A DNA stretch of 64,000 nt. Source: Candidatus Nealsonbacteria bacterium. Its GTDB lineage: Bacteria > Patescibacteriota > Minisyncoccia > Minisyncoccales > GWA2-38-27. Position 1 is the first letter of the stretch. Each line of letters starts with the position of its first letter. The notes beneath the pieces were generated by a model. It was not told where the DNA came from. It did not search any database and saw only the letters and a list, made by a program, of their open reading frames with translations. The position numbers and the translations under genes are program-made. The DNA is taken from positions 4,759 to 68,758 of the forward strand of contig JAUWWC010000001.1 in NCBI GenBank assembly GCA_030617105.1, read 5' to 3'. Positions 2,014-41,004 of this stretch are shown here, piece by piece.

Positions 2014-2014
2014 A

Positions 2015-2269: not shown

Positions 2270-2386
2270 TTTTAATACCTCCTTTCAAAAGAACAATTTT
2301 TCATTTTTCGATACTAATATCAGTATAACAAATTAAATTATGGTTGTCAAGGGTTTAAAACAAAATTTTAGTAAAAATAGAGTAAA

Positions 2387-2429: not shown

Positions 2430-2484
2430 AATATAGTTAATCCCACCGCTCTCTCGGTTCGCCGGGACGGCGGTTTTAATTTTT

Positions 2485-17200: not shown

Positions 17201-17206
17201 TAAAAA

Positions 17207-17240
17207 ATCCCTCTGAAAATCAGGGGGATTTTTGCTTTTT
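17207..17240 (+). terminator. rho-independent terminator after rpsI
   Basis: TCCCTCTG...CAGGGGGA stem followed by TTTTTGCTTTTTT. Confidence 0.6.
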
Positions 17241-17252
17241 TACTGCTTTTTA

Positions 17253-17615
17253 CTACTCTCTGTTGAATTTATATTTGATTTTGCATTGTTGGGCTCTAAA
17301 ACGATTTAGATGTTTAAATCCTGCAGGTAAATCTGATTCCAGTGTTTCTCCATTGAAGCTTAAATCAACAGGATATATACAAGCGACTTCCCAAGTTTTT
17401 GCTTGTGGGTTCTCTTGTACACAGAAAGAAAGATTGTGTTTTTGGCCCAAATCAAGAATCAGAACAGATACATCAACTACACCTTCACAACGTTTCATCG
17501 TTCTAATATTGAGCCCTTTTTTACAAGGAAGGCCAACTTGATGAGCAAATTGAAGTGCGAAGTCAACAGCTGTTAGATCTATTGCCATAACATCGGTGTT
17601 TCTAATAGAATTCAT
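17253..17615 (-). CDS. hypothetical protein (120 aa), start MNSIRNTDV with strong SD AGGAGGTG
   Basis: ORF plus canonical RBS 5 nt upstream; no family recognised. Confidence 0.5.
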   Translation of the reverse strand: MNSIRNTDVMAIDLTAVDFALQFAHQVGLPCKKGLNIRTMKRCEGVVDVSVLILDLGQKHNLSFCVQENPQAKTWEVACIYPVDLSFNGETLESDLPAGFKHLNRFRAQQCKIKYKFNRE

Positions 17616-17725
17616 TTTACACCTCCTGGGCATCACGCCCAATTTACTGCCATCACGGCAGAAAGGTTAATAATGTGGTTTGAAACGAACTAATACTACT
17701 TACAGTATACACCCATATTTAGTTT

Positions 17726-17778
17726 TTGTCAAGAGCTGGTGCTGGGGATTTGACCTTTGTTTATAAATAGATTAAAAT
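17726..17778. promoter_or_regulatory. divergent promoter pair with palindromic -35s (TTGTCAA...TTGACC); plus-strand -10 TAAAAT 17773-17778 gives near-leaderless start for the Cas4-like gene; minus-strand TTGACA-N17-TATACT for the 120-aa gene
   Basis: Hexamers and spacing read directly. Confidence 0.45.
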
Positions 17779-17786
17779 GATATTGT

Positions 17787-18470
17787 ATGTTAAAAGAAAT
17801 TATTGATAAATATTATTTGGATAGGCAGAGGAATAAAGAACAGCGTCATTTTTATATCAGTGACGCTGGCAAGTGTTCTCGGGCAGTGTTTTTTAAATTT
17901 AAAAACGCTCCCAGAAAAGAAATGGGAGCAAATATCTTGAGATTATTTGATCATGGAGACCATATGCACAAGCTTATAATGAAGTCTTTATTAAGCACTA
18001 GAGATATTCATGTCGTGGCTTCTGAAGTAAATATTGCTCCACAAGAGATAATTTCAGGCAGAGCCGACGCCATAATTAGTGATGGAAAGCAACTCTATGT
18101 TTTAGACATTAAAAGCATGAATAGTATGATTTTCAGAAATTTGATACAGGCAAAAGAGGAAAACGTTGAGCAGCTTCAATTATACTTGCATTATTTTAAA
18201 ATACCTAAGGGAATCCTGCTTTATGTTGATAAAGATAAGTTAGAGCTGAAAGAGTTTATAGTAAGCTATAATCAAATCCAAGCAGAAAGTCTTTTGAAAC
18301 AGTTAACTGTTCTTAAAAAACAAATTGATTCTAACACTATTCCTTCACGTCTTGCCGATTATCCAGATGGTTGGCAGTGTAATTATTGCCAGTTTAGAGA
18401 AATCTGTGATATGGGAGCTCCAGATGAAATGAAATGGGACGATTTTAAACAAAAAATAGAGTCTCAATAA
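17787..18470 (+). CDS. Cas4-like / RecB-family PD-(D/E)xK nuclease with 4-Cys Fe-S cluster signature (DUF83-like), stand-alone
   Basis: N-terminal Cys (SDAGKCSR), GRADAII (motif II), VLDIKS (D-x-K), QLQLY (QxxxY), C-terminal CNYCQFREIC (Cx2Cx5C). Confidence 0.6.
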   Translation: MLKEIIDKYYLDRQRNKEQRHFYISDAGKCSRAVFFKFKNAPRKEMGANILRLFDHGDHMHKLIMKSLLSTRDIHVVASEVNIAPQEIISGRADAIISDGKQLYVLDIKSMNSMIFRNLIQAKEENVEQLQLYLHYFKIPKGILLYVDKDKLELKEFIVSYNQIQAESLLKQLTVLKKQIDSNTIPSRLADYPDGWQCNYCQFREICDMGAPDEMKWDDFKQKIESQ

Positions 18471-18533
18471 ATAATTAACAAAATAAAAATTAAAAAGGAG
18501 CTTAGCTTCTTTTTAGTTTGGGAGATTTTGGCC

Positions 18534-18660
18534 TTGACAAGGTTCTTTAATAGGGGTTTAATGCATTAGAGACAAGATGGTCTTGTTTCAAGGTGTAAAG
18601 TTCTTTGAAAATTGAAAAAGTAAAAAAAACAGAAATTTTAGAAAAGAAAGGAGAATAGAA
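18534..18660 (+). promoter_or_regulatory. conserved promoter + 5'-UTR hairpin element, copy 1 (TTGACA-N17-TTTAAT; hairpin ACAAGA-TGG-TCTTGT at 18572-18586; AATTGAAA...AGGAG before ATG)
   Basis: Shared with copies at 22931-23017 and 25777-25864; stem sequences differ but stay complementary. Confidence 0.5.
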
Positions 18661-19623
18661 ATGGAAAAAAGAATAATGGCAAGAAATATTGCATGGTTTT
18701 GTGTTTTGCTTGCTGTATTAGGTAGTTTGATTTGGTTCAATAATCTTAGTATAGCTTTGCAATGGAATCCAAAAGCAGGTCATGGATTTGAATATCATGG
18801 TCCAATCTCTTATTTTGATCGTTTTGCAGTAGATTTTTCTACAGTTAGCACTCTTGTACCTTTTTTTGGGATGTGCCTTATTGCAAGAGGATTTTTCAGT
18901 ATTGCTAAAGCCAAAGAAAAGACTAATTGTTCAAAGGTCTTTCCATTTTTTGTGAATTACGAACGTATTATGGTTGCCTTAGGATTGATGGGAACGGTCT
19001 GGGGGCTTATTATGATTGGGTATTACCCATCTGAACAAGTCCAAATGTCACAGTTGATAAATTGTTTGAGAACCGCTCTTTATTCAACTTTAATTGCCTT
19101 GATTTGGGTGTTTCTTATTGTTATACCACTTAGATATAGTATGCAGCGAGCTTATAGAAGTATTTCTGGTTACCAGGTCTTAAAACCTAATGAGACTATT
19201 ATTTCCCTTTTAGGAGACCTCAGTTCAGCAGCTTCAGGCCTTACTGAGACCATAAATGAAACCAGTAGTACTTTTAGCCAGCTTAAGAATGAAGTCTCAG
19301 GAGCTAAAAAGGAATTTCAAGAAGTTGATAAGTTGATAGCAGAGATCAAAGGTAAGGCTGAAGGTGTATTTGATAAAGCTCAGGAGTCCTTTAACCAGAT
19401 AAGTTCTGGATCTCGGGCTTGGCAGCGAGCTGCAGAAAAACAGCAAAAAGCTGCTGAGGCGCAAGAAGCATTTTTCCAGCAATTAACCAATGAGTTGGAC
19501 AAAGTAATAAAAGAAAGGGATGAATTAAAAGGAAAATTAGACCAAACAAAACAAGAATTAGTTGAAGTAAAAAGCAAATTCCGTAGATTAAGGGATTTTG
19601 TTAGAGGAATAGTTGGAAAATAG
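18661..19623 (+). CDS. MotA/TolQ/ExbB-family proton-channel protein with ~165-aa C-terminal coiled-coil tail
   Basis: 4 hydrophobic segments; ALGLMGTVWGLIMIG matches TolQ/ExbB G-L-x-G-T-V-W-G signature; following TM resembles TolQ TM3; heptad-rich K/E tail. Confidence 0.6.
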   Translation: MEKRIMARNIAWFCVLLAVLGSLIWFNNLSIALQWNPKAGHGFEYHGPISYFDRFAVDFSTVSTLVPFFGMCLIARGFFSIAKAKEKTNCSKVFPFFVNYERIMVALGLMGTVWGLIMIGYYPSEQVQMSQLINCLRTALYSTLIALIWVFLIVIPLRYSMQRAYRSISGYQVLKPNETIISLLGDLSSAASGLTETINETSSTFSQLKNEVSGAKKEFQEVDKLIAEIKGKAEGVFDKAQESFNQISSGSRAWQRAAEKQQKAAEAQEAFFQQLTNELDKVIKERDELKGKLDQTKQELVEVKSKFRRLRDFVRGIVGK

Positions 19624-19636
19624 AAAGGAGCAAAAA

Positions 19637-20503
19637 ATGGAAGATTTATTAGAACGGGTAGGAACACTTTTTGGTGCTGAAAAAGAGGAAGAAGTGTCTA
19701 CGGCTGAAACTTTTGAGTTATTGTGTCAGATTGCTTTGGCTCTACTAATAATCTTTGTTATGGCTAATACTATTTTTAGAGGTAGAGCTCAGGCACAGAT
19801 TGATGAAAGTAGAGGTAGGCAAGGTGTTCTTGAAGATGAAAATAGAAGATTTAGACAAGCAGATCCAAATATTGCAAGCTATGAGAGAGCAATGATGGAT
19901 GTACAAAAACAGAAGCTTCTTTTGGCATTAGAAAAGATTGAAAATACCCTTCGTGATGATTTCGGGATTGATCATTTTGCACCAAAAGATCGCAGTACTC
20001 ATGAAAGTAAGTATTTAATGAACGATCTTCTTTCAGGGGAAAAAGTAATTAATGAGCGGTTTAAACAAGCTTGTATTATTGCTAAACAAGTTTTCTTAGA
20101 CAGAAAAAAATTGCGACAGAACTGGTGTGATAGGATACCTTTGGTTGAGCCAGGATTAGTATTTGATAGTACTCCAGAAAAACAATCAATTATTACAAAC
20201 CCTGAAGTTATAAGTCCGGAAAATGAAATATTGGTATTTCAGGAGATTGCTAATAGAATAGAAGGGATATATGCTGATTGTTGCGATATGCAGCGCATGG
20301 CCCTTTCTTATCTGCAGGAGTATTATTATGAACATACAGAATTACTAAAAGGAACTGAATTTGATAAGAACTTAAATAATGATGTATCTTCAGCATCAGA
20401 CAAGGAAAAACGAAGACTTATGTTGCAACGTAGTCAAGAATTGTATATGTATATAAAATCACTTTTTGAAAAACAGAATGTACCACTGCTTAGCGGAGTT
20501 TAA
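19637..20503 (+). CDS. single-pass membrane protein (N-in, TM aa about 25-45, ~240-aa C-terminal domain), candidate TolR/ExbD/MotB-like partner of the upstream channel
   Basis: Start at ATG 19637 with AAAGGAG SD, abutting stop of upstream gene; TM lacks canonical Asp but is preceded by Glu; topology only. Confidence 0.45.
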   Translation: MEDLLERVGTLFGAEKEEEVSTAETFELLCQIALALLIIFVMANTIFRGRAQAQIDESRGRQGVLEDENRRFRQADPNIASYERAMMDVQKQKLLLALEKIENTLRDDFGIDHFAPKDRSTHESKYLMNDLLSGEKVINERFKQACIIAKQVFLDRKKLRQNWCDRIPLVEPGLVFDSTPEKQSIITNPEVISPENEILVFQEIANRIEGIYADCCDMQRMALSYLQEYYYEHTELLKGTEFDKNLNNDVSSASDKEKRRLMLQRSQELYMYIKSLFEKQNVPLLSGV

Positions 20504-20536
20504 GCACGACGGTCATTAAGAAAGGAAGGTGCAAGA

Positions 20537-22885
20537 ATGAGATCCGCAAGAAAAAAACCTGTTATTACAATAGCTTTGTTTGTAGTTATCAGCGCCTTGC
20601 TCCCTGGAAGATTTTGCCTAGGGAGCAAGGGCGAATTATCAGCAAAAAAAGCTAATGCAAGATTGTATGCTAAGATGCATATTAATAAACTTTGCGAGCA
20701 AGCAAGAAAACAAGAAGTTGATGTTAATGATCTCTGTGAGAAAATGCTGCAGAATCCAGCTAAATATCAAAACAGAAGACAGGCCTGGGATAACTTAAAG
20801 CAGGAACAAACTCAGATGTTTACTGATTGGTATCAAAAGGAAGTGAAACTTGTTTTACAGGCAATTGACCGGAACTACTTTACTAAAGAAGAGCGAGATG
20901 CTTTTCTAAAACCTCTAGACGAAGTAGTTAAGGACTATCTTGATAAGAATTTTGGCAAAAGCCATACAGATGGAACAACAGTATTTGGCAAAGCAAGAAA
21001 AAAAGCTTATGAAAGCCAACTCAATAAGCTGACAAAAGATGTTTATCCCACAGAAAGCGAAGTTGATACAGCTGTGGCTAAAAGACAGCTCAATAACTTG
21101 CGGATTAAAATATTGAATCAGCTTATTAAAAAACAAAAAGAACCTGTTTTTTCAGAAAATGTAAGTACGCTTAGCAGCGATTTCGTTAATCCCATACTTG
21201 ACGATGCTAAAAAGCAATTAGAAAAACAAGGTTCAATTGTGACCGGTTCTTCTGGCGCTAGTTATGTTGTGCCGGAAGATATCAGGAATTTCATCAGCAG
21301 GGAGATTACTACTTATCAGAACAAGCTTAAGCAGGAAAAGCAGGGAAAAACAATAGCCAATAAGGTCTATAAGATGTTTCCTTCAGTTAAGAAGAAAGTT
21401 GATGATGAGGCAGGCAAAATCGCTATCAAAAGATTTCGCAATGCTATATCTGAAATGAATTTGTCAGTTGACAAGAAGGTTTTAAAAAAGCTGATAAGCG
21501 GGAGCTTATCAGTTCATGCTGACAAAGATAAAAGCTGGAGCACTTGCTTGAAACGTTTTCGACAAGATATTGTTAACAAAGCCATTGATAATCATGCAGT
21601 CAAGGCTCCAAAAGACAAACAATCTGATTTTCGCAACTTTCTGTCATCACTTATTTCAAACAGTGATCAATCTTGCAAAGATGCTATGAATAAACTGGTT
21701 GATAGAAGCTTGAAGCAGGAGTTTGATCGTATACGAAAAGAGATTGCTCAGCAGCAATTCAGAGATTTCTTTGGACCGCTTGAACAAGGTTCTTGGCCTT
21801 CTTCAGAAAAAGCAGATGAGCTGATTGACAAATGGTACAATAAATCAGTGAACATATCTGAATCTGAAGCTTTGAAAATGCCTGATGTTTCATCAAGGTC
21901 CTTTAATTCTAAAGACCTGCTTAAAGAGACCATTGAAATGGTTCGCGAAGCAGAAGAAGCAGGAATAAAAACAGGACTTGATGCTCTGAGGAGCCAGATG
22001 AGCACGGTTGAGAGACTTGAGTTTCAAGTCAAGAGCCAAATTAGAAATATGAGAGATCTCACTATTGAGAAGGTTATAGAGATTTACACACAAAAAGTAA
22101 ATTCATCTTGGTCTTCCAAGGATTATCCCCATCTTTTTACCCGAACTCAAAAGGAAATTAAAAGGCGAGCTAAGGATATTTTAGATTTAGAGATTGCTCG
22201 TCAGCGTCAGATTGCTAATGACAAAGCTAAAGCTGATAAAGCTCGAGCCGATGCTAAAGCCAGAGCTCAGCTTGAAGATAAAGGCAGGTCTGACATACTT
22301 GGCTTGGAAGATTCTGACAAGCCAGGAAAACCAGGTGGAGGAGGAGATCCTAATAAGTCAGGAAAACCAGGTGGTGGCACGCCTGATACTTTTGGCGGTC
22401 CTCCGGGGGGAAAAGGACCTGCAAAAGAACAAGAGGAACCGGGGGATCAAATGCCAGATGTTATTCTTGATTTTGGCTACGAAAGTGGAAAAGTTTATGC
22501 TGACATAATGTTTCCCAAAGAATCAAAAGACAAGCTTAGACTTTTTATGGATCTCAGTGTCAACCTTAATTCGTCTAACATGGTTATTGCTCGAAAGCTT
22601 TTTGCTGATTGGCTTAAAGACGCTGTCAAGAAAAGCAAAAAAGACCAGCAAGACATAAATTTCTATGTTTTTGCCCGAGTTTTTCACGGAAGTTCTGTGT
22701 TATACAGCATGGTTTATTATTTCAGAGAGTGCTTGATAAAAGCTTTAGAAGATACTGGTGATAAAAGAATAAAAATTCACTGGTATGACAGGCTTTTTTA
22801 TGGTTCTTCTGATATTGAGAAATACAGGGGTAAGCCTATTTTGCCTCCTAAGTTTGATAAAAAACTTATGCCGAGATTGGTATAA
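20537..22885 (+). CDS. large membrane-anchored or secreted protein with TolA/TonB-like architecture: N-terminal signal/anchor, ~600-aa K/E/A-rich alpha-helical region, Gly/Pro-rich spacer, ~150-aa C-terminal globular domain
   Basis: N-terminal hydrophobic segment; ANDKAKADKARADAKARAQ helical repeats; KPGKPGGGGDPNKSGKPGGGTPDTFGGPPGGKGP spacer. Confidence 0.5.
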   Translation: MRSARKKPVITIALFVVISALLPGRFCLGSKGELSAKKANARLYAKMHINKLCEQARKQEVDVNDLCEKMLQNPAKYQNRRQAWDNLKQEQTQMFTDWYQKEVKLVLQAIDRNYFTKEERDAFLKPLDEVVKDYLDKNFGKSHTDGTTVFGKARKKAYESQLNKLTKDVYPTESEVDTAVAKRQLNNLRIKILNQLIKKQKEPVFSENVSTLSSDFVNPILDDAKKQLEKQGSIVTGSSGASYVVPEDIRNFISREITTYQNKLKQEKQGKTIANKVYKMFPSVKKKVDDEAGKIAIKRFRNAISEMNLSVDKKVLKKLISGSLSVHADKDKSWSTCLKRFRQDIVNKAIDNHAVKAPKDKQSDFRNFLSSLISNSDQSCKDAMNKLVDRSLKQEFDRIRKEIAQQQFRDFFGPLEQGSWPSSEKADELIDKWYNKSVNISESEALKMPDVSSRSFNSKDLLKETIEMVREAEEAGIKTGLDALRSQMSTVERLEFQVKSQIRNMRDLTIEKVIEIYTQKVNSSWSSKDYPHLFTRTQKEIKRRAKDILDLEIARQRQIANDKAKADKARADAKARAQLEDKGRSDILGLEDSDKPGKPGGGGDPNKSGKPGGGTPDTFGGPPGGKGPAKEQEEPGDQMPDVILDFGYESGKVYADIMFPKESKDKLRLFMDLSVNLNSSNMVIARKLFADWLKDAVKKSKKDQQDINFYVFARVFHGSSVLYSMVYYFRECLIKALEDTGDKRIKIHWYDRLFYGSSDIEKYRGKPILPPKFDKKLMPRLV

Positions 22886-22890
22886 ATTCA

Positions 22891-22930
22891 AGGAGCTAAC
22901 TCTTAAAATAAGAGTTAAGCTCCTTTTTTC
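22891..22930 (+). terminator. rho-independent terminator (13-bp stem GGAGCTAACTCTT/AAGAGTTAAGCTCC + T-run)
   Basis: Read directly after stop at 22885. Confidence 0.7.
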
Positions 22931-23017
22931 TTGACAAAGTTATTTATAGGATGTTTAATGCAATAGAGGCAAGAAGGTCTTGTCTTTAGCACTTTAACAA
23001 TTGAAAGGAGACAGAAA
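22931..23017 (+). promoter_or_regulatory. conserved promoter + 5'-UTR hairpin element, copy 2 (TTGACA 22931-22936; hairpin GCAAGA-AGG-TCTTGT 22969-22983; AATTGAAAGGAG)
   Basis: Aligned by eye with copies 1 and 3. Confidence 0.5.
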
Positions 23018-24655
23018 ATGAATAAAAGAATTTTCTTGATAATTGTTATACTTTTTCAGATAGGAAAAGTTAGTGTAGCTAATTATCCGCCAAGAGTTAA
23101 AATTCAGAATCCAACAAGTGGTTCAAAATTTAAACTTGACGAAGAAATTGTTTTTAGAGGAATTGCAGTTGATTTAGAAGATGGAGAATTACCAGAAAAA
23201 AATCTTACTTGGACATCTGATTTAGATATTTATATTGGTCAAGGTAATTCATTGACCTATAAGGGTCTTTCAGTTGGTCCTCATATTGTTATGTTAACAG
23301 CATTTGATTCAGAGGGTTCTGTAGGCAGAGATTCAGTTTTTATTACAATACAAGACCCTAAGATCACTAAACCTATTGTTAAGAAACCCAAAAAGGAACC
23401 TAAAACTGGACCTGAAGGACCTAAACTTGAAGAGCTTGAACCAGGGGCGCCATCTATTGAATTTCTTTTTGTGCCTTCTTTTCGCAGTTTCGAAGATCTT
23501 ACAGGCAGAGTATTGAGTGCTGACCCTAATAATTTTGCTGTTGCTGTTTATATTATGAAAGATGGTCTTTGGTGGAGTAAGCGGGTAGGCAAGATTAATA
23601 GAGAGGGCAGATGGATTTGTGATATTACGACAGCTGAACGTGATGAAGTAGCGCTTAAAATCCTTGTCTATCTTGTTCCAAGCGATTTTAAACCCCCGTT
23701 AGCTTCTGGCAATTTTCAGCTTTCTCATGAATTAGAGAAAAATAGTGTAGCAAAAATAGAAGTACTTCGGAAAATAAGAATGCCCAAGGTAACGTTACAG
23801 TCAAAAAGGGAGCCAGAAATCAAGAAGATCCGCAAAAAGCCAGAACCTAAAGGTCCAATAGAGGCATTGGGAGAGCTTTTGATTCGGTTGCTGCCTAAAG
23901 AAAAGCAAACAACAGAGACTCTGAAAAGATATCTCCCTTTAGCAGTTGGCAACAAATGGACCTATCAGAGAACCGTTTACAAGAGCGATGAAGTTTTTCA
24001 TTACAGAAAGCAAATTATTGAGAAACCTGGCTGGAATAGTCCCCCTCGAGGAGCTGTCTATTTTACCCTCGGCCGGACAATAGAAAAGATGCCCCAGAGT
24101 TCTCTAGAGACATATAGCATTTCTAATTCTACTCTAACAGACAAATTTGCATCCTGGGACGTAGAAATTGAAGGGACTATTCCTAGAGATGGAAGATACT
24201 CCTCACTTTATATTAAAGAGGAGCCAAATGTTAAATGGCTTTATGTTGATGGAGGTGTTTGGGAACTAATGCAAGGTGAATATTTAGGCGCTGAGACCAT
24301 AAGTCAGACTTGGCTAGCGGTCTTAGAGCCAGGGATAATAATTTCTGACTCAGCAAAAGAAGGGGAGATACCTTTCTGGGCAATAGGAGCAGTTTTAATC
24401 CCAGAAAAAATCACTACCCCGGCTGGAAAATTCTCAAGCTGCTTGAAGAATTGCACTATGATTAGAGGTCAAAATTTGAAAGAAGTATTATTAAAAGATA
24501 TGCCTCCTGAGTATTCAGAACAGGAAGATGGTTTTGGAAACTTCACGACCATATCTTTTTATGCGGAAGATGTTGGCTTGATCAAAGAGGTTCAGTATAA
24601 CTCCAAAGGGGAACTTGTATATGAATTAGCGTTAATCGAATATAAGGTAAATTGA
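23018..24655 (+). CDS. secreted multi-domain protein (signal peptide; Ig-like N-domain; domain shared with the GH17-like protein; C-terminal domain shared with the downstream paralog)
   Basis: RGRVLSADPNNFAVAVYIM...WICDITT aligns with 25865 product; PLAVGNKWTY and YELAL motifs align with 24778 product. Confidence 0.55.
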   Translation: MNKRIFLIIVILFQIGKVSVANYPPRVKIQNPTSGSKFKLDEEIVFRGIAVDLEDGELPEKNLTWTSDLDIYIGQGNSLTYKGLSVGPHIVMLTAFDSEGSVGRDSVFITIQDPKITKPIVKKPKKEPKTGPEGPKLEELEPGAPSIEFLFVPSFRSFEDLTGRVLSADPNNFAVAVYIMKDGLWWSKRVGKINREGRWICDITTAERDEVALKILVYLVPSDFKPPLASGNFQLSHELEKNSVAKIEVLRKIRMPKVTLQSKREPEIKKIRKKPEPKGPIEALGELLIRLLPKEKQTTETLKRYLPLAVGNKWTYQRTVYKSDEVFHYRKQIIEKPGWNSPPRGAVYFTLGRTIEKMPQSSLETYSISNSTLTDKFASWDVEIEGTIPRDGRYSSLYIKEEPNVKWLYVDGGVWELMQGEYLGAETISQTWLAVLEPGIIISDSAKEGEIPFWAIGAVLIPEKITTPAGKFSSCLKNCTMIRGQNLKEVLLKDMPPEYSEQEDGFGNFTTISFYAEDVGLIKEVQYNSKGELVYELALIEYKVN

Positions 24656-24777
24656 AAGGAGCGGAAAATGATTAAGAGAATTTTTCAAAAGAAAGGAGGA
24701 TTGAAACGAAAAGGATTGTAATTGTTTTAGAGAAATAGAAACAGAAACCCTTTAGGAAAACATGAAAGGAGAAAAAA

Positions 24778-25731
24778 ATGAAGACTCTACTAAAAAATGT
24801 AAAGTTAGTTATTTTGGTTGTTTTTGTGGCTCTGGCTTCTTTATTCTTTTTTGAAAGAAAGCCTAGTGAGGCTTCTAACCAGCCAACTGAGATCAGGATG
24901 AAAGAGCGAAAGACAGTAGAGAAAGCTACCACTACTGAAAATTTTATCCCCGGTACCTATGATCCAAGATTACTTATGCCCCTAGCTCTTGGAAATAGCT
25001 GGACCTACGGTTGGAAAAGTGCTGCTGTATCGACCTTAAAAGAAGTAGAATCCAAAGATAAGGCAATTTTTAGGGGTCTAAGCTGGTACTCATTTGGTGG
25101 AAAGAGTGTGCTGGCCAGATGCTATGGCTATAAAGCAAAAGCCCATAAGGAAACTTACACCCTTATCCGACAGGATGGCGATCACTATTTCTTTACTATT
25201 TCTATTGATCCCAAGGTACCTTCAGAACAGATACGCGATGGCAGATTTGAAGATTCTGTTGAGAATTGCTGGACCTGGTGGGACCTTAGGCAAGGCTCTT
25301 ACGGTTCAATGGGAATGACTGAGTCCATAAAACGGAATTGGGGTATCCATAGAGATTATCTTCTTGGCAAACAAGCTGAATTGCCAGATGATTTTCCAGC
25401 AGACCACCGCAACGCTATTCACATTGAGTTTACAGAAGGTGAGTGGGGCGATAGTTGGTTGGAATTTGCTTATTCTAAAAATCCCTGTAGATATGTATAC
25501 AAAACCATGGGTAATGAAGTTAAGGTAGCTGCTGGAACATTCAAAAACTGTATTGAAGCGATTGAGAAGGTTCATAAGGATGCCGAAGAGAAAAGCCCCC
25601 TGGTCTGGGAGACCCATATATTCTGGGCTCCTGAGGTAGGCAAGGTCTGGGAATACCAGAGGCTTGCTGATGGTACCATAACCTATGAGTTGGAGCTCCT
25701 AAAATTTGTTCCAGCCCAAAAGAAAAAATAG
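24778..25731 (+). CDS. secreted protein, paralog of the C-terminal domain of the 23018 product
   Basis: Signal/TM at N-terminus; PLALGNSWTY...YELEL shared motifs. Confidence 0.55.
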   Translation: MKTLLKNVKLVILVVFVALASLFFFERKPSEASNQPTEIRMKERKTVEKATTTENFIPGTYDPRLLMPLALGNSWTYGWKSAAVSTLKEVESKDKAIFRGLSWYSFGGKSVLARCYGYKAKAHKETYTLIRQDGDHYFFTISIDPKVPSEQIRDGRFEDSVENCWTWWDLRQGSYGSMGMTESIKRNWGIHRDYLLGKQAELPDDFPADHRNAIHIEFTEGEWGDSWLEFAYSKNPCRYVYKTMGNEVKVAAGTFKNCIEAIEKVHKDAEEKSPLVWETHIFWAPEVGKVWEYQRLADGTITYELELLKFVPAQKKK

Positions 25732-25740
25732 GCAAAATAG

Positions 25741-25776
25741 GTGTCAGATTTATTTTCTGGCACCTCTTTTTTTCGC
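25741..25776 (+). terminator. rho-independent terminator (GGTGTCAG...CTGGCACC stem with one G-U, then T9)
   Basis: Read directly. Confidence 0.6.
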
Positions 25777-25864
25777 TTGACAAAGCATTGATAAGATATA
25801 TGCTATAAAAGAGAGATAAGGCGGTCTTATCTCAAGATTAAGAACCTTAAAAATTGAAAGGAGA
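25777..25864 (+). promoter_or_regulatory. conserved promoter + 5'-UTR hairpin element, copy 3 (TTGACA 25777-25782; hairpin GAGATAAG-GCGGT-CTTATCTC 25813-25833; AATTGAAAGGAG)
   Basis: Aligned by eye with copies 1 and 2. Confidence 0.5.
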
Positions 25865-27766
25865 TTGAAAATGGAAAAGAGAGTCTTTTTAATGATTGTT
25901 ACGATAGTGTTAGTTTTGAATTATTTTGTTCCTGTTGTATGTGGAGCAGAATCTGTGCCTGCAATCGGGCTCACTTATGTGCCGAAATATGGCAGTACTG
26001 AGAACTTGCGAGGCAGAGTATTAAATGCCAATTCTAAAGATTTTGCTGTTGCTGTTTATATTATGGTAGATCGTTTTTGGTGGACCAAGCCTTATTGGGA
26101 CAGCCCGATAACAGAAATTAATGATGATGGAACCTGGGTTTGTGATATTACCACTGGCGGTATTGACGAGACCGCCACCAGGATTGCTGCTTATCTTATT
26201 CCAGCTGATTACAAGCCTTCTTTGATCAGCTGGAATTTTCAGCTTCCTCAAGATCTGGAAGAGAAAGCTTTAGCAAAAGCAGAGGCAAGGCGGGATGTAT
26301 TAGGCAAAGTGTCGATAATACCTAGAGTTGAAGCAGAGTCCAAGATAGATATCAGGGAAAGAGATGTTGATAAACTGAAAGGTGTATGTTACGGACCTTT
26401 TCGTGATAATGAGAATCCTGATATGGGCATCCTTCCGTTTCTTGATGAGTTGAATCCTGATATTGGGTTTATTCCCAAGGTAGCCAGGGCAATTAGGACA
26501 TATGGTTGTACCAATACGCTTGGTAATATTCCTGCATTGTGCGAGAAAATTGCTATAGACTGCTATCCCGGGGCTTGGCTTGGTAAGTACAAAGCAGAAA
26601 ATAGAGAAGAAATTGAAAGTTTCATCCAGATTGCTAATCAGAACCTCAATTGTGTTAAAGCTCTAATTGTGGGAAATGAGGTTCTGCTGAGAGAAGATAT
26701 GACCGGGGAAGAGTTGATTTTCTACATCAGGGAACTGAAAAAAACAGGAGTTCCTGTGACAACCGCAGACATATGGAGAGTTTGGCTCATGCACCCAGAG
26801 CTTGCCGATGAGGTTGACTTTTTAATGGTTCATATCCATCCCTACTGGGAAGGAATATCAATAGGGGATGCTGCAAATTATGTTATACAGCGCTGGAATG
26901 CCATGAAGAAACGTTTTCCCGGCAAAAGGATTGTGATAGGTGAAACAGGATGGCCCTCTGAAGGTAAAACAATAGGTAAAGCCATAGCCAGTCCAGAAAA
27001 CCAGGCAAGATTTTTTAAAGAGTTTACTCAGTTAGCTGAAAAGGAACGGATTGAATACTTCTATTTTGAGCTATTTGATGAACTCTGGAAAGATAAATTT
27101 GAAGGTAAAGCTGGAGCTCATTGGGGGATCTACAATTCAGATGGTTCATTAAAAGATCATATGAAAGATCTGATTCCTACCCAAGCCCTCGAAGGGATTA
27201 GCCGGCCTCTAAGAGAAGTTGCTAAAGTTAAGGTCAGTGCTCCTCTTATTGTTTACAGGGATGCTGGTTCAGAAGAAAATAGCTTCCAGCCATCGGGTTG
27301 GATGGGTGATAGCGAGTGCATAGATTTGGACAAGGCCTGTGAGATAAACCCTTATGCTGGTAAGACCTGTATCCGTATTAGCTTCAAAGCTGCTCGATTC
27401 CTCTCCTGGGGTTGGGCTAGTATTTATTGGCAGTATCCTTTAAACAACTGGGGTAAATATCCTGGCTATGAGCTGTCAGGAGCTAACAAGCTTAGCTTCT
27501 GGGCTCGAGGCGAGAAAGGCAATGAAAAAGCAGAGTTTAAGACAGGAGGGATTAGGAGTTGGGTTCCAACAGAGTTCCGTCGCGATTCCTTTGGTCCTGT
27601 CTCTACTGGCGTCATGAAACTTACTCCAGAATGGAAAAAATATATCATTGACCTAAAAGGTAAAGACATGAGTAGTGTGATTGGCGGCTTTTGCTGGACA
27701 ACTAATCGTTGGTGGAATCCCAAAGGTTGCACGATTTACTTAGATGATATTCAGTTTGAACCATAA
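25865..27766 (+). CDS. secreted glycoside hydrolase family 17-like (beta-1,3-glucanase-like) protein with N-terminal domain paralogous to the 23018 product and a ~200-aa C-terminal probable carbohydrate-binding domain
   Basis: KGVCYGPF, LIVGNEVLL (acid/base Glu) and IGETGWPSEG (nucleophile Glu) GH17 motifs; signal peptide. Confidence 0.6.
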   Translation: MKMEKRVFLMIVTIVLVLNYFVPVVCGAESVPAIGLTYVPKYGSTENLRGRVLNANSKDFAVAVYIMVDRFWWTKPYWDSPITEINDDGTWVCDITTGGIDETATRIAAYLIPADYKPSLISWNFQLPQDLEEKALAKAEARRDVLGKVSIIPRVEAESKIDIRERDVDKLKGVCYGPFRDNENPDMGILPFLDELNPDIGFIPKVARAIRTYGCTNTLGNIPALCEKIAIDCYPGAWLGKYKAENREEIESFIQIANQNLNCVKALIVGNEVLLREDMTGEELIFYIRELKKTGVPVTTADIWRVWLMHPELADEVDFLMVHIHPYWEGISIGDAANYVIQRWNAMKKRFPGKRIVIGETGWPSEGKTIGKAIASPENQARFFKEFTQLAEKERIEYFYFELFDELWKDKFEGKAGAHWGIYNSDGSLKDHMKDLIPTQALEGISRPLREVAKVKVSAPLIVYRDAGSEENSFQPSGWMGDSECIDLDKACEINPYAGKTCIRISFKAARFLSWGWASIYWQYPLNNWGKYPGYELSGANKLSFWARGEKGNEKAEFKTGGIRSWVPTEFRRDSFGPVSTGVMKLTPEWKKYIIDLKGKDMSSVIGGFCWTTNRWWNPKGCTIYLDDIQFEP

Positions 27767-27773
27767 CAAAATA

Positions 27774-27806
27774 AAGCCCTCTTAGGATAATCCTTAGAGG
27801 GCTTTT
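27774..27806. terminator. bidirectional terminator between convergent genes (near-perfect 15-bp palindrome flanked by A-run and T-run)
   Basis: AAAGCCCTCTTAGGA-TAA-TCCTTAGAGGGCTTT read directly. Confidence 0.7.
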
Positions 27807-27846
27807 TATGTACTTATTTTAAGACTATATGTTTAACTTTAGCGAA

Positions 27847-29118
27847 TCAAGGAGTTAATTCTTCTGAAGTGTAAAGGTTCCCTTCAGATAAAATATATAG
27901 CTTTTTATTAGCCCAGAAGATTTTAGGTTCTTTAAACTCAGTCAGGTCAACTATATTTATTCTATCTCGGTCGTCGATTTCGACGACTTTTATTTTATCT
28001 CCAGCATTAAAGATTAAATAATGGTTTGTATACCAGAAAACATTATCAATTCTCTCTGAGAAACGTGTTATAAATAGTTTTTCTCCAGGTTCCTTTTGTG
28101 GCTGGTCATATTTCTTTTCTAAGAATAAAACCCAGATTTCATAATTATTGAAATAAGCCATTTTTCTTGAATCAGGAGAGAATTTGAGATCTTTAATTGG
28201 TTCAAAGAGTTTTTGGAAAGATTTTTTACTTTCATCAAAAATATATAAAATATCATTTTCTTCCAAGAGAATATGAGAGTTGGAAGCTCTGATTTTATAT
28301 TTTGTTTCTTGTTTAACCTCAAAAGGAATCAGATTTAATCTTTCTTGGTTTTTGAAAACAAAGCCAGCTATGTCAAGATAGTAAATATCTTTGTTAGAAA
28401 TAAAGAGGGTAATTACATTTTTCAGTTCTGGGGCAGGGTCCAAGAAGGCTTGTTCAGGCCATTCTAAAAAACCAATAGAGGTCAAAACAGGAGGACTTTT
28501 ATCTATATCTAAAACATAATAATTTATTGTTTCTTTAAGGCCAACTTTCAGCAAGATTTTTTTTGAATCTGGAGAAAATCTTATATCAAACAACTCTACT
28601 TCTTCTTTTGATATGTCTTCTTCATCAATGAGATGGCTTTTGACATTTTTATCTATTTCAAAAAGCTTTAAAGACCAGCCAGGGCTTTTTAAGATTATCT
28701 TTTTCTTGTCTGGAGAAAAGAAAAAGTCCCTTACCCCTTTTGTTATTATTGTAAAGCCTGGGTTTTCTGGGATTAAGACGATATTTTTTGCTTCAGTAGC
28801 CTCTCTTTTCCTTATTTCTAATGTTTTCTCCCACTTATGAAATCCTTGTTTTTTAACCTCCACCTTATATTCTTTAGCCAAGAGATTTTCAATAAGTACT
28901 GAGCCAAAGAAGAAGTCAGTTTTCTCTTTTAGTTCTCCATTAAGATAAATTTCAGCGCTCCGTGGCCAGACCTTGAAATAGAAAATTCCTGGCTGGGTGA
29001 TTTTTTTGGTTTCCCAGTCAAAACGCCAGCCCAGGCAATACAAAACAGCTAAAGGAGCAATAATTAGAAATAAAATTAACAAAGATAAAAATAGAATAGT
29101 CCGCGTTTTATAAGTCAT
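27847..29118 (-). CDS. membrane-anchored protein with PEGA-like domain and TolB-like beta-propeller repeats
   Basis: N-terminal TM; VWPRSAEIYLNGE...KVEVKKQGFHKWE PEGA-like; repeated FSPDSKK/FSPDSRK propeller-like motifs. Confidence 0.5.
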   Translation of the reverse strand: MTYKTRTILFLSLLILFLIIAPLAVLYCLGWRFDWETKKITQPGIFYFKVWPRSAEIYLNGELKEKTDFFFGSVLIENLLAKEYKVEVKKQGFHKWEKTLEIRKREATEAKNIVLIPENPGFTIITKGVRDFFFSPDKKKIILKSPGWSLKLFEIDKNVKSHLIDEEDISKEEVELFDIRFSPDSKKILLKVGLKETINYYVLDIDKSPPVLTSIGFLEWPEQAFLDPAPELKNVITLFISNKDIYYLDIAGFVFKNQERLNLIPFEVKQETKYKIRASNSHILLEENDILYIFDESKKSFQKLFEPIKDLKFSPDSRKMAYFNNYEIWVLFLEKKYDQPQKEPGEKLFITRFSERIDNVFWYTNHYLIFNAGDKIKVVEIDDRDRINIVDLTEFKEPKIFWANKKLYILSEGNLYTSEELTP

Positions 29119-29187
29119 AGATATTTTTTAATTTTACCTTAAATTTTTACCCTTGCCAAGTTTTTGATTTTAGATTAAGATAGGAAT

Positions 29188-30460: not shown

Positions 30461-31468
30461 ATGTTTATTAAGAAAATTGGCATTGATTTAGGAACCTGCA
30501 ATTCAGTGGTTTTTACTCCTAAAAAAGGAGTGGTTTTGACTGAACCTTCAGTAGTAGCAGTTACTCTTGCTGAAAACAAAATTCTGGCTGTAGGTCAAGA
30601 AGCAAAAGAAATGACTGGTCGAACACCTGATACGATTAGGATTTATAGACCTTTAAAAGATGGAGTAATTGCTGATTATAGAGTTACTGAAGCAATGCTG
30701 AGATATTTTGTTAAGAGAGCAGCAAGAAGTTTTAGGTTTTTTAAACCAGAGCTTTTAGTTGGAGTACCAGCTGGTATCACTTCTACTGAGAAAAGAGCAG
30801 TGATTGAAGCTGGGATGGCAGCTGGAGCTAAGGGAGTTTACGTTGCTAAAGAGCCAATTTTAGCTGCAATTGGGGCTGGCATTCCTATTAATTCTTGTTC
30901 AGGCCATATGATTGTTGATATTGGCGGAGGGACTTCAGAAGTAGCTGTGATTTCTCTTGGCGGGATAGTAACTTGCAGTTCTCTTAGAGTAGCTGGAGAT
31001 AAAATGGACCAGGCAATTTCCAATTACATCAAGAAGAAGTATAATCTGGCTATTGGTGAACAGACAGCTGAAGAGATAAAGATAAAAATTGGCACAGCTT
31101 TGCCAGAGAAGGAAGAGAAAGAAATGGAAATCAGGGGCAGGAATTTAATTTCTGGCTTGCCTCAGAACATTAAGATTAGTTCTAACGAGGTTTGTGAGGC
31201 AATTTCTGACCGGCTTGATGAAATTGTTCAGATAGTTAAGGCAGTTTTAAGAGAGACGCCTCCTGAGCTTTCAGCTGATATTATGGATAAAGGAATGATT
31301 CTTTCAGGCGGGGGAGCATTGGTTAGAAATATTGATGGACTTATTGCTCGGGCTACTGGAGTTCCTTGTTTTTTAGCTGAAGATCCATTGCTTTGCGTTG
31401 CAAAAGGACCAGGAGTAGTGCTGGAGAGTCTTGAAGCATATAAGAAGAGTATAATGACTAAAAAGTGA
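30461..31468 (+). CDS. mreB: rod shape-determining protein MreB
   Basis: IGIDLGTCNSVVF, DIGGGTSEVAVISLGG actin-fold motifs. Confidence 0.8.
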   Translation: MFIKKIGIDLGTCNSVVFTPKKGVVLTEPSVVAVTLAENKILAVGQEAKEMTGRTPDTIRIYRPLKDGVIADYRVTEAMLRYFVKRAARSFRFFKPELLVGVPAGITSTEKRAVIEAGMAAGAKGVYVAKEPILAAIGAGIPINSCSGHMIVDIGGGTSEVAVISLGGIVTCSSLRVAGDKMDQAISNYIKKKYNLAIGEQTAEEIKIKIGTALPEKEEKEMEIRGRNLISGLPQNIKISSNEVCEAISDRLDEIVQIVKAVLRETPPELSADIMDKGMILSGGGALVRNIDGLIARATGVPCFLAEDPLLCVAKGPGVVLESLEAYKKSIMTKK

Positions 31469-38908: not shown

Positions 38909-39190
38909 GGCCTGCGGGGTGGAGAAGTAGTATCTTGCGAGGCCCATAAACTTTTTGTGGCCCAGAGTAGTAATATTCTGCGGAAAAATTCTCTAAATTG
39001 CTGGAAAGCCCATAAGGGTAATCAGCAGCCAAGGTCGTCTAGGGCGACAAGGTTCAGAGACTATAATGGGAACTTCCTTTTTAAAAGGAAGATGGTATAG
39101 TCCGTTCCATCTAGAAATAGATGGCTAACATTAAAGAACCTCGAGACACAGGTGCAATTCCTGTCCCCGCGACTAGTATTCTTTAGAATT
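38909..39190 (+). ncRNA. candidate structured non-coding RNA of unknown class, downstream of a TATAAT box at 38903-38908
   Basis: ~280 nt without convincing ORF; multiple GC-rich local stems (GGGCC...GGCCC, CCCATAAGGG); identity not established. Confidence 0.25.
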
Positions 39191-40587: not shown

Positions 40588-40681
40588 CAAACAATTTAAA
40601 TATTGCTAAAAATAGTATTAGAATTTTGTTCTTTGAAAGTTGAATAAAGTATTAATGTTTAAAATTGAAAAGAGGTGAAAA
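40584..40681 (+). promoter_or_regulatory. promoter + leader, copy A of a duplicated ~75-nt element (TTGACA 40584-40589; 39-nt identical core 40599-40637)
   Basis: ATATTGCTAAAAATAGTATTAGAATTTTGTTCTTTGAAA identical to 40927-40965. Confidence 0.5.
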
Positions 40682-40911: not shown

Positions 40912-41004
40912 TTGACAAAAAGTTCATATATTGCTAAAAATAGTATTAGAATTTTGTTCTTTGAAAATTGAATAGTTAATGTTTAGAAAGAAAGGGAGAT
41001 TAAG
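40912..41004 (+). promoter_or_regulatory. promoter + leader, copy B of duplicated element (TTGACA 40912-40917; core 40927-40965)
   Basis: See copy A. Confidence 0.5.

What the first reader, a model, noticed from the sequence alone, without database searches (positions are those of the whole stretch)
17201..29120. ~12-kb accessory island between rpsI and murA: candidate undescribed proton-motive-force-coupled envelope or defence module
The island starts at the terminator after rpsI and ends where housekeeping resumes at murA. It encodes a stand-alone Cas4-like nuclease, a MotA/TolQ/ExbB-family channel with a coiled-coil tail, a single-TM partner, a 782-aa TolA/TonB-like anchored protein, three paralogous secreted proteins (one GH17-like) and a PEGA/beta-propeller membrane protein. 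Three of its transcription units carry copies of one conserved promoter plus 5'-UTR hairpin element, which suggests a single regulon. No integrase, transposase or CRISPR array is present, so it is not an obvious mobile element. I do not recognise the gene set as any named system. The nearest analogies are Tol-Pal or ExbB-ExbD-TonB (unexpected in a presumably outer-membrane-less CPR-type cell) and the anti-phage Zorya system, whose ZorA is a MotA homolog with a long tail, but ZorC/ZorD equivalents are absent.
Basis: partly seen in the sequence, partly recalled or inferred. Interest (0 to 1): 0.85.

Follow-up and report, generated by a model that had tools for sequence, protein, structure and literature searches.

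The report
Unstudied TolQ-like three-gene envelope module
The region holds a real, widely conserved but undescribed three-gene set built around a relative of the proton-driven TolQ/ExbB/MotA motor proteins; its partner protein lacks the acidic residue that known motors of this sequence family need, and here it shares a control element with secreted sugar-cutting proteins, but its function is still unknown.

Summary
The 12-kb block is not one system and is not a recent accessory island: two relatives at 50-68% protein identity have the same rpsI...murA order.

The core is a 4.2-kb cassette.
- A is a MotA/TolQ/ExbB-family protein, closest to TolQ, with a cytoplasmic coiled-coil tail.
- B is a single-pass protein whose membrane helix aligns with the ExbD/TolR helix but carries Gln where their essential Asp sits.
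- C is a secreted, roughly 600-residue helical protein.

A-B-C are adjacent in essentially every locus long enough to show them, about 90 in all. Most are in Kiritimatiellia, Lentisphaerae and Verrucomicrobia, among housekeeping genes. A few are in other phyla, and one is in a prophage. B and C match no Pfam, NCBIfam, PADLOC or PHROGs model and no solved structure.

In this lineage one promoter plus 5' RNA hairpin heads the A-B-C operon and two secreted-protein units (one GH17), so these are probably co-regulated.

PADLOC hits and genomic context do not support a defence role. C lacks the TolA/TonB anchor motif, and the missing Asp makes ordinary proton coupling doubtful.

Verdict: a new variant of the 5:2 motor-type complexes, probably acting in the envelope, function unproven.

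The parts
17203..17233 (+). Intrinsic terminator after rpsI; left boundary of the block. Also serves the convergent small minus-strand gene.
   Evidence: 14-bp stem followed by a T-run; sequence.
17253..17618 (-). It has an RBS (GGAGG) and a near-consensus promoter at 17732-17704. Not part of the module.
   Evidence: ORF; promoter TTGACA-17-TATACT, 11 of 12 matches. No hit in Pfam, NCBIfam or PHROGs. Absent from the same spot in L090.
17787..18470 (+). Stand-alone Cas4-family PD-(D/E)XK nuclease with four Cys. A neighbour in this lineage only, not part of the conserved cassette.
   Evidence: PF12705 2.5e-7. PADLOC Cas4 1.2e-12. NCBIfam cas4 scores 41 bits, below the cut-off of 65. PHROG 1990 8e-28. 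Adjacent to the cassette only in L001 and L090.
18533..18590 (+). Copy 1 of the shared promoter (TTGACA-17 nt-TTTAAT) plus 5'-terminal RNA hairpin; heads the A-B-C operon.
   Evidence: (family D4).
18661..19623 (+). A: MotA/TolQ/ExbB-family protein. It has 4 predicted TM helices, pore motifs LGLxGTVWG and TALxST, and a cytoplasmic coiled-coil tail of about 160 aa.
   Evidence: PF01618 is above its cut-off, and 28 of 28 family members match it. A TM-only profile hits only TolQ, ExbB and MotA in the PDB. D58, T112, T138, S142 and T143 are invariant in 88 sequences.
19637..20503 (+). B: single-pass membrane protein. Its ExbD/TolR-like TM helix has Gln at the Asp position, followed by an all-helical domain of about 230 aa outside the membrane.
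   Evidence: No family or PDB hit.
20537..22885 (+). C: secreted 782-aa protein. Order: signal peptide, conserved helical body (about 35-580), Gly-rich disordered linker (580-637), alpha/beta C-terminal domain (640-755).
   Evidence: The C-terminal domain is absent from the PVC members.
22890..22929 (+). Terminator after C.
   Evidence: Long hairpin followed by a T-run, read directly from the sequence.
22930..22987 (+). Copy 2 of the promoter plus 5' hairpin; heads the S545-S317 unit.
23018..24655 (+). S545: secreted protein. Its middle domain is shared with GH17 and its C-terminal DUF3108-like domain is shared with S317.
   Evidence: Orthologues in L090 and L091.
24778..25731 (+). S317: secreted or anchored protein, a paralogue of the S545 C-terminal domain. 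Probably co-transcribed with S545.
   Evidence: No terminator or promoter element lies between the two genes.
25739..25765 (+). Terminator after S317.
25777..25834 (+). Copy 3 of the promoter plus 5' hairpin; heads the GH17 gene.
25871..27766 (+). Secreted GH17-family enzyme (beta-1,3-glucan-active family). Both catalytic-Glu motifs are present (GNEV, GETGWPS). Its N-terminal domain is shared with S545, and it has an extra C-terminal domain.
   Evidence: PF00332 2.3e-13; motifs read from the translation. GH17-like genes follow A-B-C in L003, L004/5, L008, L009, L090 and L091.
27774..27808 (.). Bidirectional terminator between GH17 and the convergent PEGA gene.
   Evidence: Sequence.
27847..29118 (-). 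Membrane-anchored PEGA plus beta-propeller-like protein. It sits next to murA in relatives too. Not part of the cassette.
   Evidence: Weak PEGA and DPPIV_N hits. Orthologues next to murA in L090 and L091.

Best explanation
The finding contains a self-contained three-gene cassette, A-B-C (18661-22885). It most likely builds a TolQ/TolR-type '5:2' inner-membrane complex. A pentamer of A would surround the membrane helices of a B dimer. The helical ectodomain of B and the secreted helical protein C would form the part outside the membrane, and the coiled-coil tails of A would project into the cytoplasm. I think it works in the cell envelope (mechanical or conformational coupling between the membrane and a surface layer), not in phage defence.

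In this lineage it is probably co-regulated, through a shared promoter and 5' mRNA hairpin, with secreted proteins that include a GH17 beta-1,3-glucan enzyme. The local job would then be to build, remodel or hold on to a surface or extracellular glucan.

Shown:
- A belongs to the MotA/TolQ/ExbB family.
- A, B and C are strictly adjacent in about 90 loci.
- Gln is invariant in the TM helix of B.
- C carries a signal peptide.
- The cis-element is shared and shows RNA-type covariation.
- The block is syntenic in relatives.

Inferred:
- The 5:2 assembly.
- That B's helix sits in A's pore.
- That C binds B.
- The envelope role and the link to glucan.

Because the pore Asp is replaced by Gln, proton flow cannot follow the canonical route. 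Either another group takes over (the invariant Asp58 of A is a candidate) or the complex does not rotate.
For: A is a genuine family member:
- PF01618 is above its cut-off, and 28 of 28 relatives match it.
- A TM-only profile finds only TolQ (E 0.005), ExbB and MotA among 177,635 PDB sequences. GLiGTvWG aligns to TolQ GLFGTVWG.
- The Thr/Ser residues at the positions of the pore ring are invariant in 88 sequences.

The TM helix of B aligns in the same register to ExbD and to TolR, with Gln opposite Asp25 and Asp23.

Cassette conservation:
- It is present in all 8 metagenome contexts examined.
- It is present in about 75 of 80 GTDB species loci.
- A, B and C are the only gene clusters shared by more than 9 loci.

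C proteins have signal-peptide-like N-termini throughout.

In PVC genomes the flanking genes are housekeeping: argH, purE, NAD synthase, obg, lipid A acyltransferase.

The cis-element has 3 copies in the window against 0 expected. It sits at orthologous positions in L090 and L091. The 9-bp stem is kept in 7 of 7 copies, with one C:G to U:A swap and several G:U pairs, which fits an RNA structure.

A GH17 gene follows the cassette in 7 loci from several lineages, including a prophage.
Against: - The 5:2 assembly and the B-in-A geometry rest on analogy.
No B member hits Pfam ExbD or MotB.
- Without the Asp, a motor function is questionable.
- The folds of B and C have no informative structural neighbours, so nothing ties them to a specific envelope process.
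- The GH17 link is absent from the majority PVC clade.
- The C-terminal domain of C is also absent there.
- The host's envelope type is unverified.
Confidence: 0.5

Rival explanations
1. Zorya-like anti-phage system. A-B would sense envelope damage and signal through the A tail to a cytoplasmic effector, here the adjacent Cas4-like nuclease, by analogy with type II Zorya (ZorA-ZorB-ZorE).
For: - A has a C-terminal cytoplasmic coiled-coil tail, as ZorA does, and its best PADLOC hit is ZorA2 (E 2.3e-6).
- A nuclease gene lies directly upstream here and in L090.
- The cassette occurs in varied contexts in several phyla. One copy lies between phage replication genes and a serine recombinase, and one lies near a PIN/MazE pair.
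Against: - B has no peptidoglycan-binding domain and no Asp. The Zorya structure paper calls Asp26 universally conserved and essential (PMC11946911).
- B has no PADLOC hit. C has only one weak REase_II hit (3e-4), and C is secreted, unlike ZorC, ZorD and ZorE.
- The Cas4-like gene is outside the hairpin-marked units and is absent from every other lineage's cassette.
- The PVC copies sit among housekeeping genes.
- Only 1 of 2.9 million viral contigs carries the cassette.
Confidence: 0.1
2. A divergent but ordinary Tol-Pal or Ton system. A would be TolQ/ExbB, B would be TolR/ExbD, and C would be a TolA/TonB-type, PMF-energised force transducer reaching an outer layer.
For: - The nearest solved relatives of A are TolQ proteins.
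- The gene order, channel then single-TM protein then long extended protein, mirrors tolQRA.
- In this subfamily C has TolA-like architecture: a hydrophobic N-terminus, a long helical region, a Gly-rich linker and a globular C-terminal domain.
- A 2025 survey found that some PVC bacteria lack recognisable TolA and TonB (PMC12204202).
Against: - The essential Asp of TolR/ExbD is Gln or Asn in 97% of 80 family members, and Gln in 116 of the 120 aligned representatives.
- The N-terminus of C looks like a cleaved signal peptide, is not conserved, and has no SHLS/His motif.
- Most family members lack the linker and the C-terminal domain.
- No tolB, pal or TonB-dependent receptor gene is linked.
- No NCBIfam TolQ, ExbB, TolR or ExbD model matches.
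Confidence: 0.15
3. A non-rotary 'pseudo-motor'. The TolQR-like scaffold would have lost ion coupling and would serve as a static trans-membrane anchor or sensor, linking an extracytoplasmic helical assembly (B ectodomain plus C) to a cytoplasmic coiled-coil platform.
For: - The pore residue cannot be protonated, yet it is almost invariant (Gln), so it is under selection for something other than proton shuttling.
- A more distant B-like subfamily, with the motif WNxFVQILLPL, also keeps the Gln.
- The tail of A varies in length and has coiled-coil character.
Against: - The whole set of pore-lining motifs of A is 100% conserved in 88 sequences (G108, G111, T112, G115, T138, S142, T143). A mere scaffold would not need this.
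- A also has an invariant Asp58 that could supply a protonatable group.
Confidence: 0.2

Closest known systems
TolQ-TolR(-TolA) of the Tol-Pal system
   Same: A is a MotA/TolQ/ExbB-family protein whose best solved relatives are TolQ. The GLxGTVWG and ALxxT pore motifs are conserved. The adjacent gene encodes a single-pass protein with a TolR-like TM helix, and a third gene encodes a long extended protein.
   Different: The TM helix of B has Gln instead of Asp23, and B lacks the TolR periplasmic domain. C is secreted, has no SHLS anchor helix, and is unrelated in sequence and fold. A has an extra N-terminal TM helix and a coiled-coil tail of 110-250 aa. No tolB or pal gene is linked.
ExbB-ExbD-TonB
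   Same: The same superfamily for A and the same three-gene logic. The TM helix of B aligns to ExbD FIDVMLVLLIIFMVA.
   Different: No Asp25 equivalent, no TonB-like Pro-rich or C-terminal domain, and no TonB-dependent receptors nearby. ExbB is a weaker match than TolQ (E 0.19 against 0.005).
Zorya ZorA-ZorB
   Same: A MotA-like subunit with a C-terminal cytoplasmic coiled-coil tail. The ectodomain of the partner is fused to its TM helix without a flexible linker. There is a weak PADLOC ZorA2 hit.
   Different: The tail is much shorter than ZorA's tail, which projects about 70 nm into the cytoplasm. B has no OmpA-like peptidoglycan-binding domain and no Asp26. There are no ZorC, D, E, F or G equivalents. 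The third component is secreted. The PVC copies are not in defence islands.
GldL-GldM / PorL-PorM (type IX secretion and gliding motor)
   Same: Architectural analogy. The inner subunit is a single TM helix continuing into a long helical periplasmic domain. From my own knowledge (Hennell James et al. 2021), the axle protein GldM also lacks the Asp, and the key acidic residue sits on the outer subunit GldL. The top, non-significant Foldseek hits of the B model were GldLM and PorM chains.
   Different: No sequence or significant structural similarity (E 0.35, TM-score 0.14). A belongs to the MotA/TolQ/ExbB Pfam family, whereas GldLM is reported to lack obvious sequence homology to MotAB. No T9SS genes are linked.
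TolQR-linked vWA 'force transducers' of PVC bacteria and Proteobacteria (Mol Biol Evol 2025, PMC12204202)
   Same: These are recently proposed, uncharacterised TolQ-like motor modules, also found in PVC bacteria, with a non-TolA/TonB partner.
   Different: Those partners carry a vWA domain. They either keep the SHLS/His anchor or carry a trans-pore helix with the conserved Asp. Here there is no vWA domain, no His anchor, and Gln instead of Asp.

Membership tests
MotA/TolQ/ExbB proton-channel superfamily (protein A) | Match to Pfam PF01618 at or above the gathering score. | tested here: met
   25.1 bits against a cut-off of 22.9 for the window protein. 28 of 28 family members match, best E 3.8e-8.
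MotA/TolQ/ExbB proton-channel superfamily (protein A) | Conserved Thr/Ser ring in the last two TM helices (TolQ T145/T178; ExbB T148/T181). | tested here: met
   T112, S142 and T143 are invariant in 88 sequences. GLiGTvWG aligns with TolQ GLFGTVWG. The residues are named in PMC12215075.
MotA/TolQ/ExbB proton-channel superfamily (protein A) | Forms a pentamer around a dimer of the partner (5:2). | not testable with these tools
   Only single-chain prediction was available.
ExbD/TolR/MotB/ZorB-type axle subunit (protein B) | Encoded next to the channel gene; a single N-terminal TM helix. | tested here: met
   B follows A in 79 of 87 loci. The TM helix is seen.
ExbD/TolR/MotB/ZorB-type axle subunit (protein B) | Essential protonatable Asp in the TM helix (ExbD D25, TolR D23, MotB D32, ZorB D26). 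| tested here: not met
   Gln in 97% of 80 family members, with Asn in a few. Of 120 aligned representatives: 116 Gln, 2 Asn, 1 Glu, 1 Asp.
ExbD/TolR/MotB/ZorB-type axle subunit (protein B) | Profile match to ExbD (PF02472), or a MotB plug or OmpA-like peptidoglycan-binding domain. | tested here: not met
   0 of 23 members hit any such Pfam model at E up to 10. No NCBIfam or PDB hit. The model is all-helical.
Tol-Pal / Ton systems (whole module) | TolA/TonB-type transducer with an uncleaved TM anchor carrying the SHLS/His motif. | tested here: not met
   The N-termini of C are variable signal-peptide-like segments ending in small-x-small sites (CLG|S, SAG|N) with no conserved His. SignalP was not available, so cleavage itself is inferred.
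Tol-Pal / Ton systems (whole module) | Linked tolB/pal or TonB-dependent receptor genes. | tested here: not met
   No gene cluster other than A, B and C is shared by more than 9 of 87 loci.
Zorya anti-phage system | ZorA with a long cytoplasmic tail plus ZorB with Asp and a peptidoglycan-binding domain. | tested here: not met
   A gives a weak ZorA2 hit (2.3e-6) and has a short tail. B has no PADLOC hit, no Asp and no peptidoglycan-binding domain.
Zorya anti-phage system | Type-specific soluble effectors (ZorC/D, ZorE, ZorF/G). | tested here: not met
   No PADLOC hit to any Zor effector among the 8 proteins scanned. C is secreted.
CRISPR-associated Cas4 (gene 17787-18470) | Scores above the Cas4 equivalog cut-off and lies next to cas genes or a CRISPR array. 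| tested here: not met
   TIGR00372 scores 41.4 bits against a cut-off of 65. No array in the window. The best matches are phage Cas4-domain exonucleases. It belongs to the wider PD-(D/E)XK/Cas4 fold family.
Glycoside hydrolase family 17 (gene 25871-27766) | Pfam PF00332 match and the two catalytic Glu motifs. | tested here: met
   PF00332 scores 50.9 bits against a cut-off of 28.2, although only the last third of the model aligns. The motifs IVGNEV and GETGWPS were read in the translation. Activity was not tested.

The most novel reading that the evidence does not exclude
A-B-C defines a new class of TolQ/MotA-type complexes that works without the Asp that published structural work calls universally conserved and mechanistically essential. 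Either it uses a different ion path (for example the invariant Asp58 of the outer subunit) or it transmits conformational signals without rotating. Its output would go both to a secreted helical partner outside the membrane and to a coiled-coil bundle inside. It would be a standard envelope machine of Kiritimatiellia, Lentisphaerae and Verrucomicrobia that has also been passed to CPR-type and other bacteria and to a prophage.
Probability: 0.3. Interest if true: 0.85.

Novelty: new variant of a known kind. Interest (0 to 1): 0.62.

Why it matters
The 5:2 ion-driven complexes (MotAB, ExbBD, TolQR, GldLM, ZorAB) are few, and each turned out to power a major process: motility, nutrient import, envelope integrity, secretion or immunity.

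This would be another conserved member. It is found in more than 90 species-level genomes, mostly little-studied gut and rumen PVC bacteria. Its two partner proteins belong to no described family.

Its axle helix carries Gln where the sequence-related motors (MotB, ExbD, TolR, ZorB) need Asp. That gives a sharp, testable question about how, or whether, such complexes can work without the canonical proton carrier.

Its presence in a probable CPR genome, next to co-regulated secreted glucan-active proteins, also offers a handle on the poorly understood cell surface of these organisms.

Tried and rejected
- Family scans of all island proteins (PADLOC, PHROGs, NCBIfam). Only the Cas4-like, A and GH17 proteins gave meaningful hits.
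- PDB sequence searches with family profiles. B gave none and C gave only noise. The full-length A profile was swamped by coiled-coil hits, so I repeated it with a TM-only alignment.
- The afdb50 library was not available.
- B and C are not paralogues (hhalign probability 0.2%).
- I considered C as an all-alpha polysaccharide enzyme because of its many invariant polar and aromatic residues. I rejected this because no toroid or lysozyme-like fold match appeared.
- Viral collection scan. It found one contig, the same element as L009, so this is not a phage-typical module.
- Literature searches for this family in CPR, Kiritimatiellia or Akkermansia. No description was found.
- Naming the source organism. 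The cluster look-up gave no names and the murA look-up found nothing.
- The idea that the hairpin is a DNA operator palindrome. This is less likely than an RNA stem, because several copies keep pairing only through G:U.

Full report
**What is there.** Between rpsI (ends 17200, terminator 17203-17233) and murA (starts 29188) lie nine genes.
- A small minus-strand gene (17253-17618) with its own near-consensus promoter.
- A Cas4-family PD-(D/E)XK nuclease (17787-18470).
- A (18661-19623).
- B (19637-20503).
- C (20537-22885).
- Two secreted proteins: S545 (23018-24655) and S317 (24778-25731).
- A secreted GH17 enzyme (25871-27766).
- A convergent PEGA/beta-propeller membrane protein (27847-29118).

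A is MotA_ExbB, 25.1 bits against a cut-off of 22.9. GH17 is PF00332 at 2e-13. The nuclease is PDDEXK_1/Cas4. The PEGA and propeller hits are weak. B, C and S317 have no Pfam, NCBIfam, PADLOC or PHROGs family; the only hit among them is one weak REase_II match on C, 3e-4 in PADLOC. The 'three paralogues' are mosaic. S545 shares one domain with GH17 (44% identity, E 2e-32) and another with S317 (E 1e-5). The window has no CRISPR-like array.

**The cis-element.** Upstream of A, S545 and GH17 there is a TTGACA-17 nt-TTTAAT-type promoter, followed within a few bases by a stem-loop. The pattern AGAGRYAAG-N2-6-TCTTRT occurs three times in the 64-kb window, only at these sites, against 0 expected in 100 shuffles. 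The same element sits at the orthologous positions in two related contigs. Across seven copies all nine stem pairs are kept. One pair switches C:G to U:A in three copies, and four pairs vary through G:U. This fits an RNA hairpin at the very 5' end of the transcripts better than a DNA operator. I read it as a shared expression signal, either a 5' stabiliser or a regulator target, that ties the A-B-C operon to the S545-S317 and GH17 units. The Cas4-like gene, the small gene and the PEGA gene do not carry it.

**The real unit is a three-gene cassette.**
- A has only 35 relatives at E no higher than 0.001 in the 5.8-billion-protein collection.
- All eight metagenomic contexts I fetched show the same order: A, then a protein of 270-295 aa, then a protein of 740-783 aa. 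The surroundings are otherwise unrelated.
- A scan of one genome per GTDB species found 93 loci, of which 80 were kept. In about 75 of the 80, profiles of B and C hit the next two genes. The exceptions are mostly contig ends.
- Clustering of all neighbouring ORFs found no other real (non-overlapping) gene family shared by more than 9 of 87 loci.

The carriers are mainly Kiritimatiellia, Lentisphaerae/Victivallales and Verrucomicrobia MAGs from guts and rumens. There are also a Desulfosarcina, a Brocadiaceae and a few unnamed bacteria. B-like proteins form only 153 clusters at 50% identity among 1.84 billion representatives.

**The block is not a recent island.** Two contigs whose C proteins are 50-57% identical to the window's have the same layout: (rpsI - Cas4-like -) A-B-C - S545-like - (S317) - GH17 - ... 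- PEGA - murA - mreB - holB. L090 shows the whole order. L091 starts just upstream of A, and its first codons (..CTFC..) may be the end of a Cas4-like gene. L090 has a few extra genes between GH17 and PEGA. The only compositional signal in the window is a mild G+C rise over S317 and GH17. So the arrangement is ancestral to this clade. Across phyla the cassette has clearly moved. In L009, A-B-C-GH17 lies between phage replication genes and a serine recombinase, and IMG/VR lists that contig as viral. It is the only such case among 2.9 million viral contigs.

**Protein A.** All 28 aligned relatives match PF01618. A profile of the membrane part alone finds, in the whole PDB, only TolQ (E 0.005), ExbB (0.19) and MotA (about 1). 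The TolQ motif GLFGTVWG aligns with A's GLxGTVWG. In 88 non-identical family members these residues are invariant:
- G108, L109, G111, T112 and G115 in TM3.
- T138, A139, S142, T143 and A146 in TM4.
- D58, S60, T64 and P67 in TM2.

T112 and T143 correspond to the threonine ring that contacts the essential Asp of TolR/ExbD in the cryo-EM structures (PMC12215075). After TM4 comes a coiled-coil tail of variable length, about 110 to 250 residues, which must be cytoplasmic. That feature recalls ZorA, and PADLOC's ZorA2 model gives a weak hit (2.3e-6).

**Protein B.** B has a short acidic N-terminus, one TM helix and an all-helical domain of about 230 residues. The AlphaFold2 model has pLDDT 81, and the TM helix runs on without a break to residue 75. 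Its helix, LCQIALALLIIFVMA, aligns in the same register to E. coli ExbD FIDVMLVLLIIFMVA and to TolR LLDVLLVLLLIFMA. This puts Gln opposite Asp25 and Asp23. That position is Gln in 97% of 80 family members, with Asn in a few. Among 120 aligned representatives it is Gln in 116, Asn in 2, Glu in 1 and Asp in 1. These include a more distant subfamily with the motif WNxFVQILLPL. No member hits Pfam ExbD, MotB or OmpA. The Zorya structure paper calls this Asp 'universally conserved and mechanistically essential' in 5:2 motors (PMC11946911). From my own knowledge, GldLM is the one exception: there the acidic residue sits on the outer subunit. So a canonical proton relay through B is excluded. The invariant Asp58 of A is a candidate substitute, but I could not place it in three dimensions.

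**Interpretation.** The best-supported reading is a TolQR-like membrane complex with a new axle protein and a secreted partner, working in the envelope. In this lineage it is probably co-expressed with secreted beta-1,3-glucan-active proteins.

The defence reading is weak.
- B has no PADLOC hit, and C has only one weak REase_II hit, 3e-4.
- C is extracytoplasmic.
- The Cas4-like gene is linked only in this lineage and lies outside the regulon-like element.
- In PVC genomes the cassette is flanked by argH, purE, NAD synthase, obg and lipid A acyltransferase genes.

The Tol/Ton reading fails on the Asp, on the anchor motif and on the lack of linked partner genes. A non-rotary 'pseudo-motor' stays open, but it sits uneasily with the perfect conservation of A's pore motifs.

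**Host.** The window is compact housekeeping DNA at about 35% G+C. There is no L30 between S5 and L15, the AlaRS is short, there are two MreB genes, and S9 has a Lys-rich extension. This is compatible with CPR/Patescibacteria. I could not obtain a name for the source, so the claim that the system is 'unexpected in an outer-membrane-less cell' remains unverified.

**Known or new.** I found no description in the searchable literature. The nearest is a 2025 survey that proposes other uncharacterised TolQR-linked 'vWA force transducers' in PVC bacteria. Those keep the Asp or the His anchor and have a different partner domain (PMC12204202). I therefore rate this a new variant of a known kind. It is of clear interest to people working on 5:2 motors and PVC or CPR envelopes, but its function is still inferred.

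Noticed in passing
window 38911-39170: A group I intron (Rfam RF00028, 84 bits, 38938-39124) interrupts the anticodon loop of an initiator-like tRNA-Met(CAU). The exons read GCGGGGTGGAG...GGCCCATAA and ...CCTCGAGACACAGGTGCAATTCCTGTCCCCGC. ARAGORN did not report this tRNA.
   Followed up: partly
window 17253-17732 (minus strand): A small 121-aa gene with RBS GGAGG and a near-perfect promoter (TTGACA-17-TATACT). It lies between the rpsI terminator and the Cas4-like gene. It has no homologue in the libraries searched and is absent from the same spot in relative L090.
   Followed up: partly
L009 1-21020 (JGI 3300032046; also IMG/VR UViG L092): An A-B-C-GH17 copy lies inside an apparent prophage or integrative element. 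The element carries RusA, DUF669, AAA_24, DUF3799, a sigma factor and a helicase with an intein on one side, and a serine recombinase on the other.
   Followed up: partly
proteins P0145-P0211: A second, more distant B-like subfamily of about 300 aa. Its TM motif is (V/I)WN(L/V)FVQILLPLxLIL, and it also keeps the Gln. Its gene context could not be looked up with the tools allowed.
   Followed up: no
window 40584-40660 and 40912-40990: Two near-identical promoter-like repeats (TTGACAAA...ATATTGCTAAAAATAGTATTAGAATTTTGTTCTTTGAAA), about 330 nt apart, just downstream of tRNA-Asp.
   Followed up: no
window 2014-2484: An unusually long gap of about 470 nt between rplF (L6) and rplR (L18) in the ribosomal protein operon. 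It holds promoter-like TTGACA sites on both strands and a 67-aa hydrophobic minus-strand ORF (2066-2269).
   Followed up: no
window 2815-3712; 9174-10889; 30461-31468 and 35549-36601: Signs of a reduced genome. rpsE overlaps rplO with no rpmD (L30) between them, the AlaRS is a short 571-aa form, and there are two MreB paralogues.
   Followed up: partly
L010 11868-14432: In the Victivallales chromosome OY787460.1 the gene after B does not match the C profile as one ORF. Instead there is a 325-aa minus-strand ORF and a 507-aa plus-strand ORF. This may be a disrupted or replaced C.
   Followed up: no
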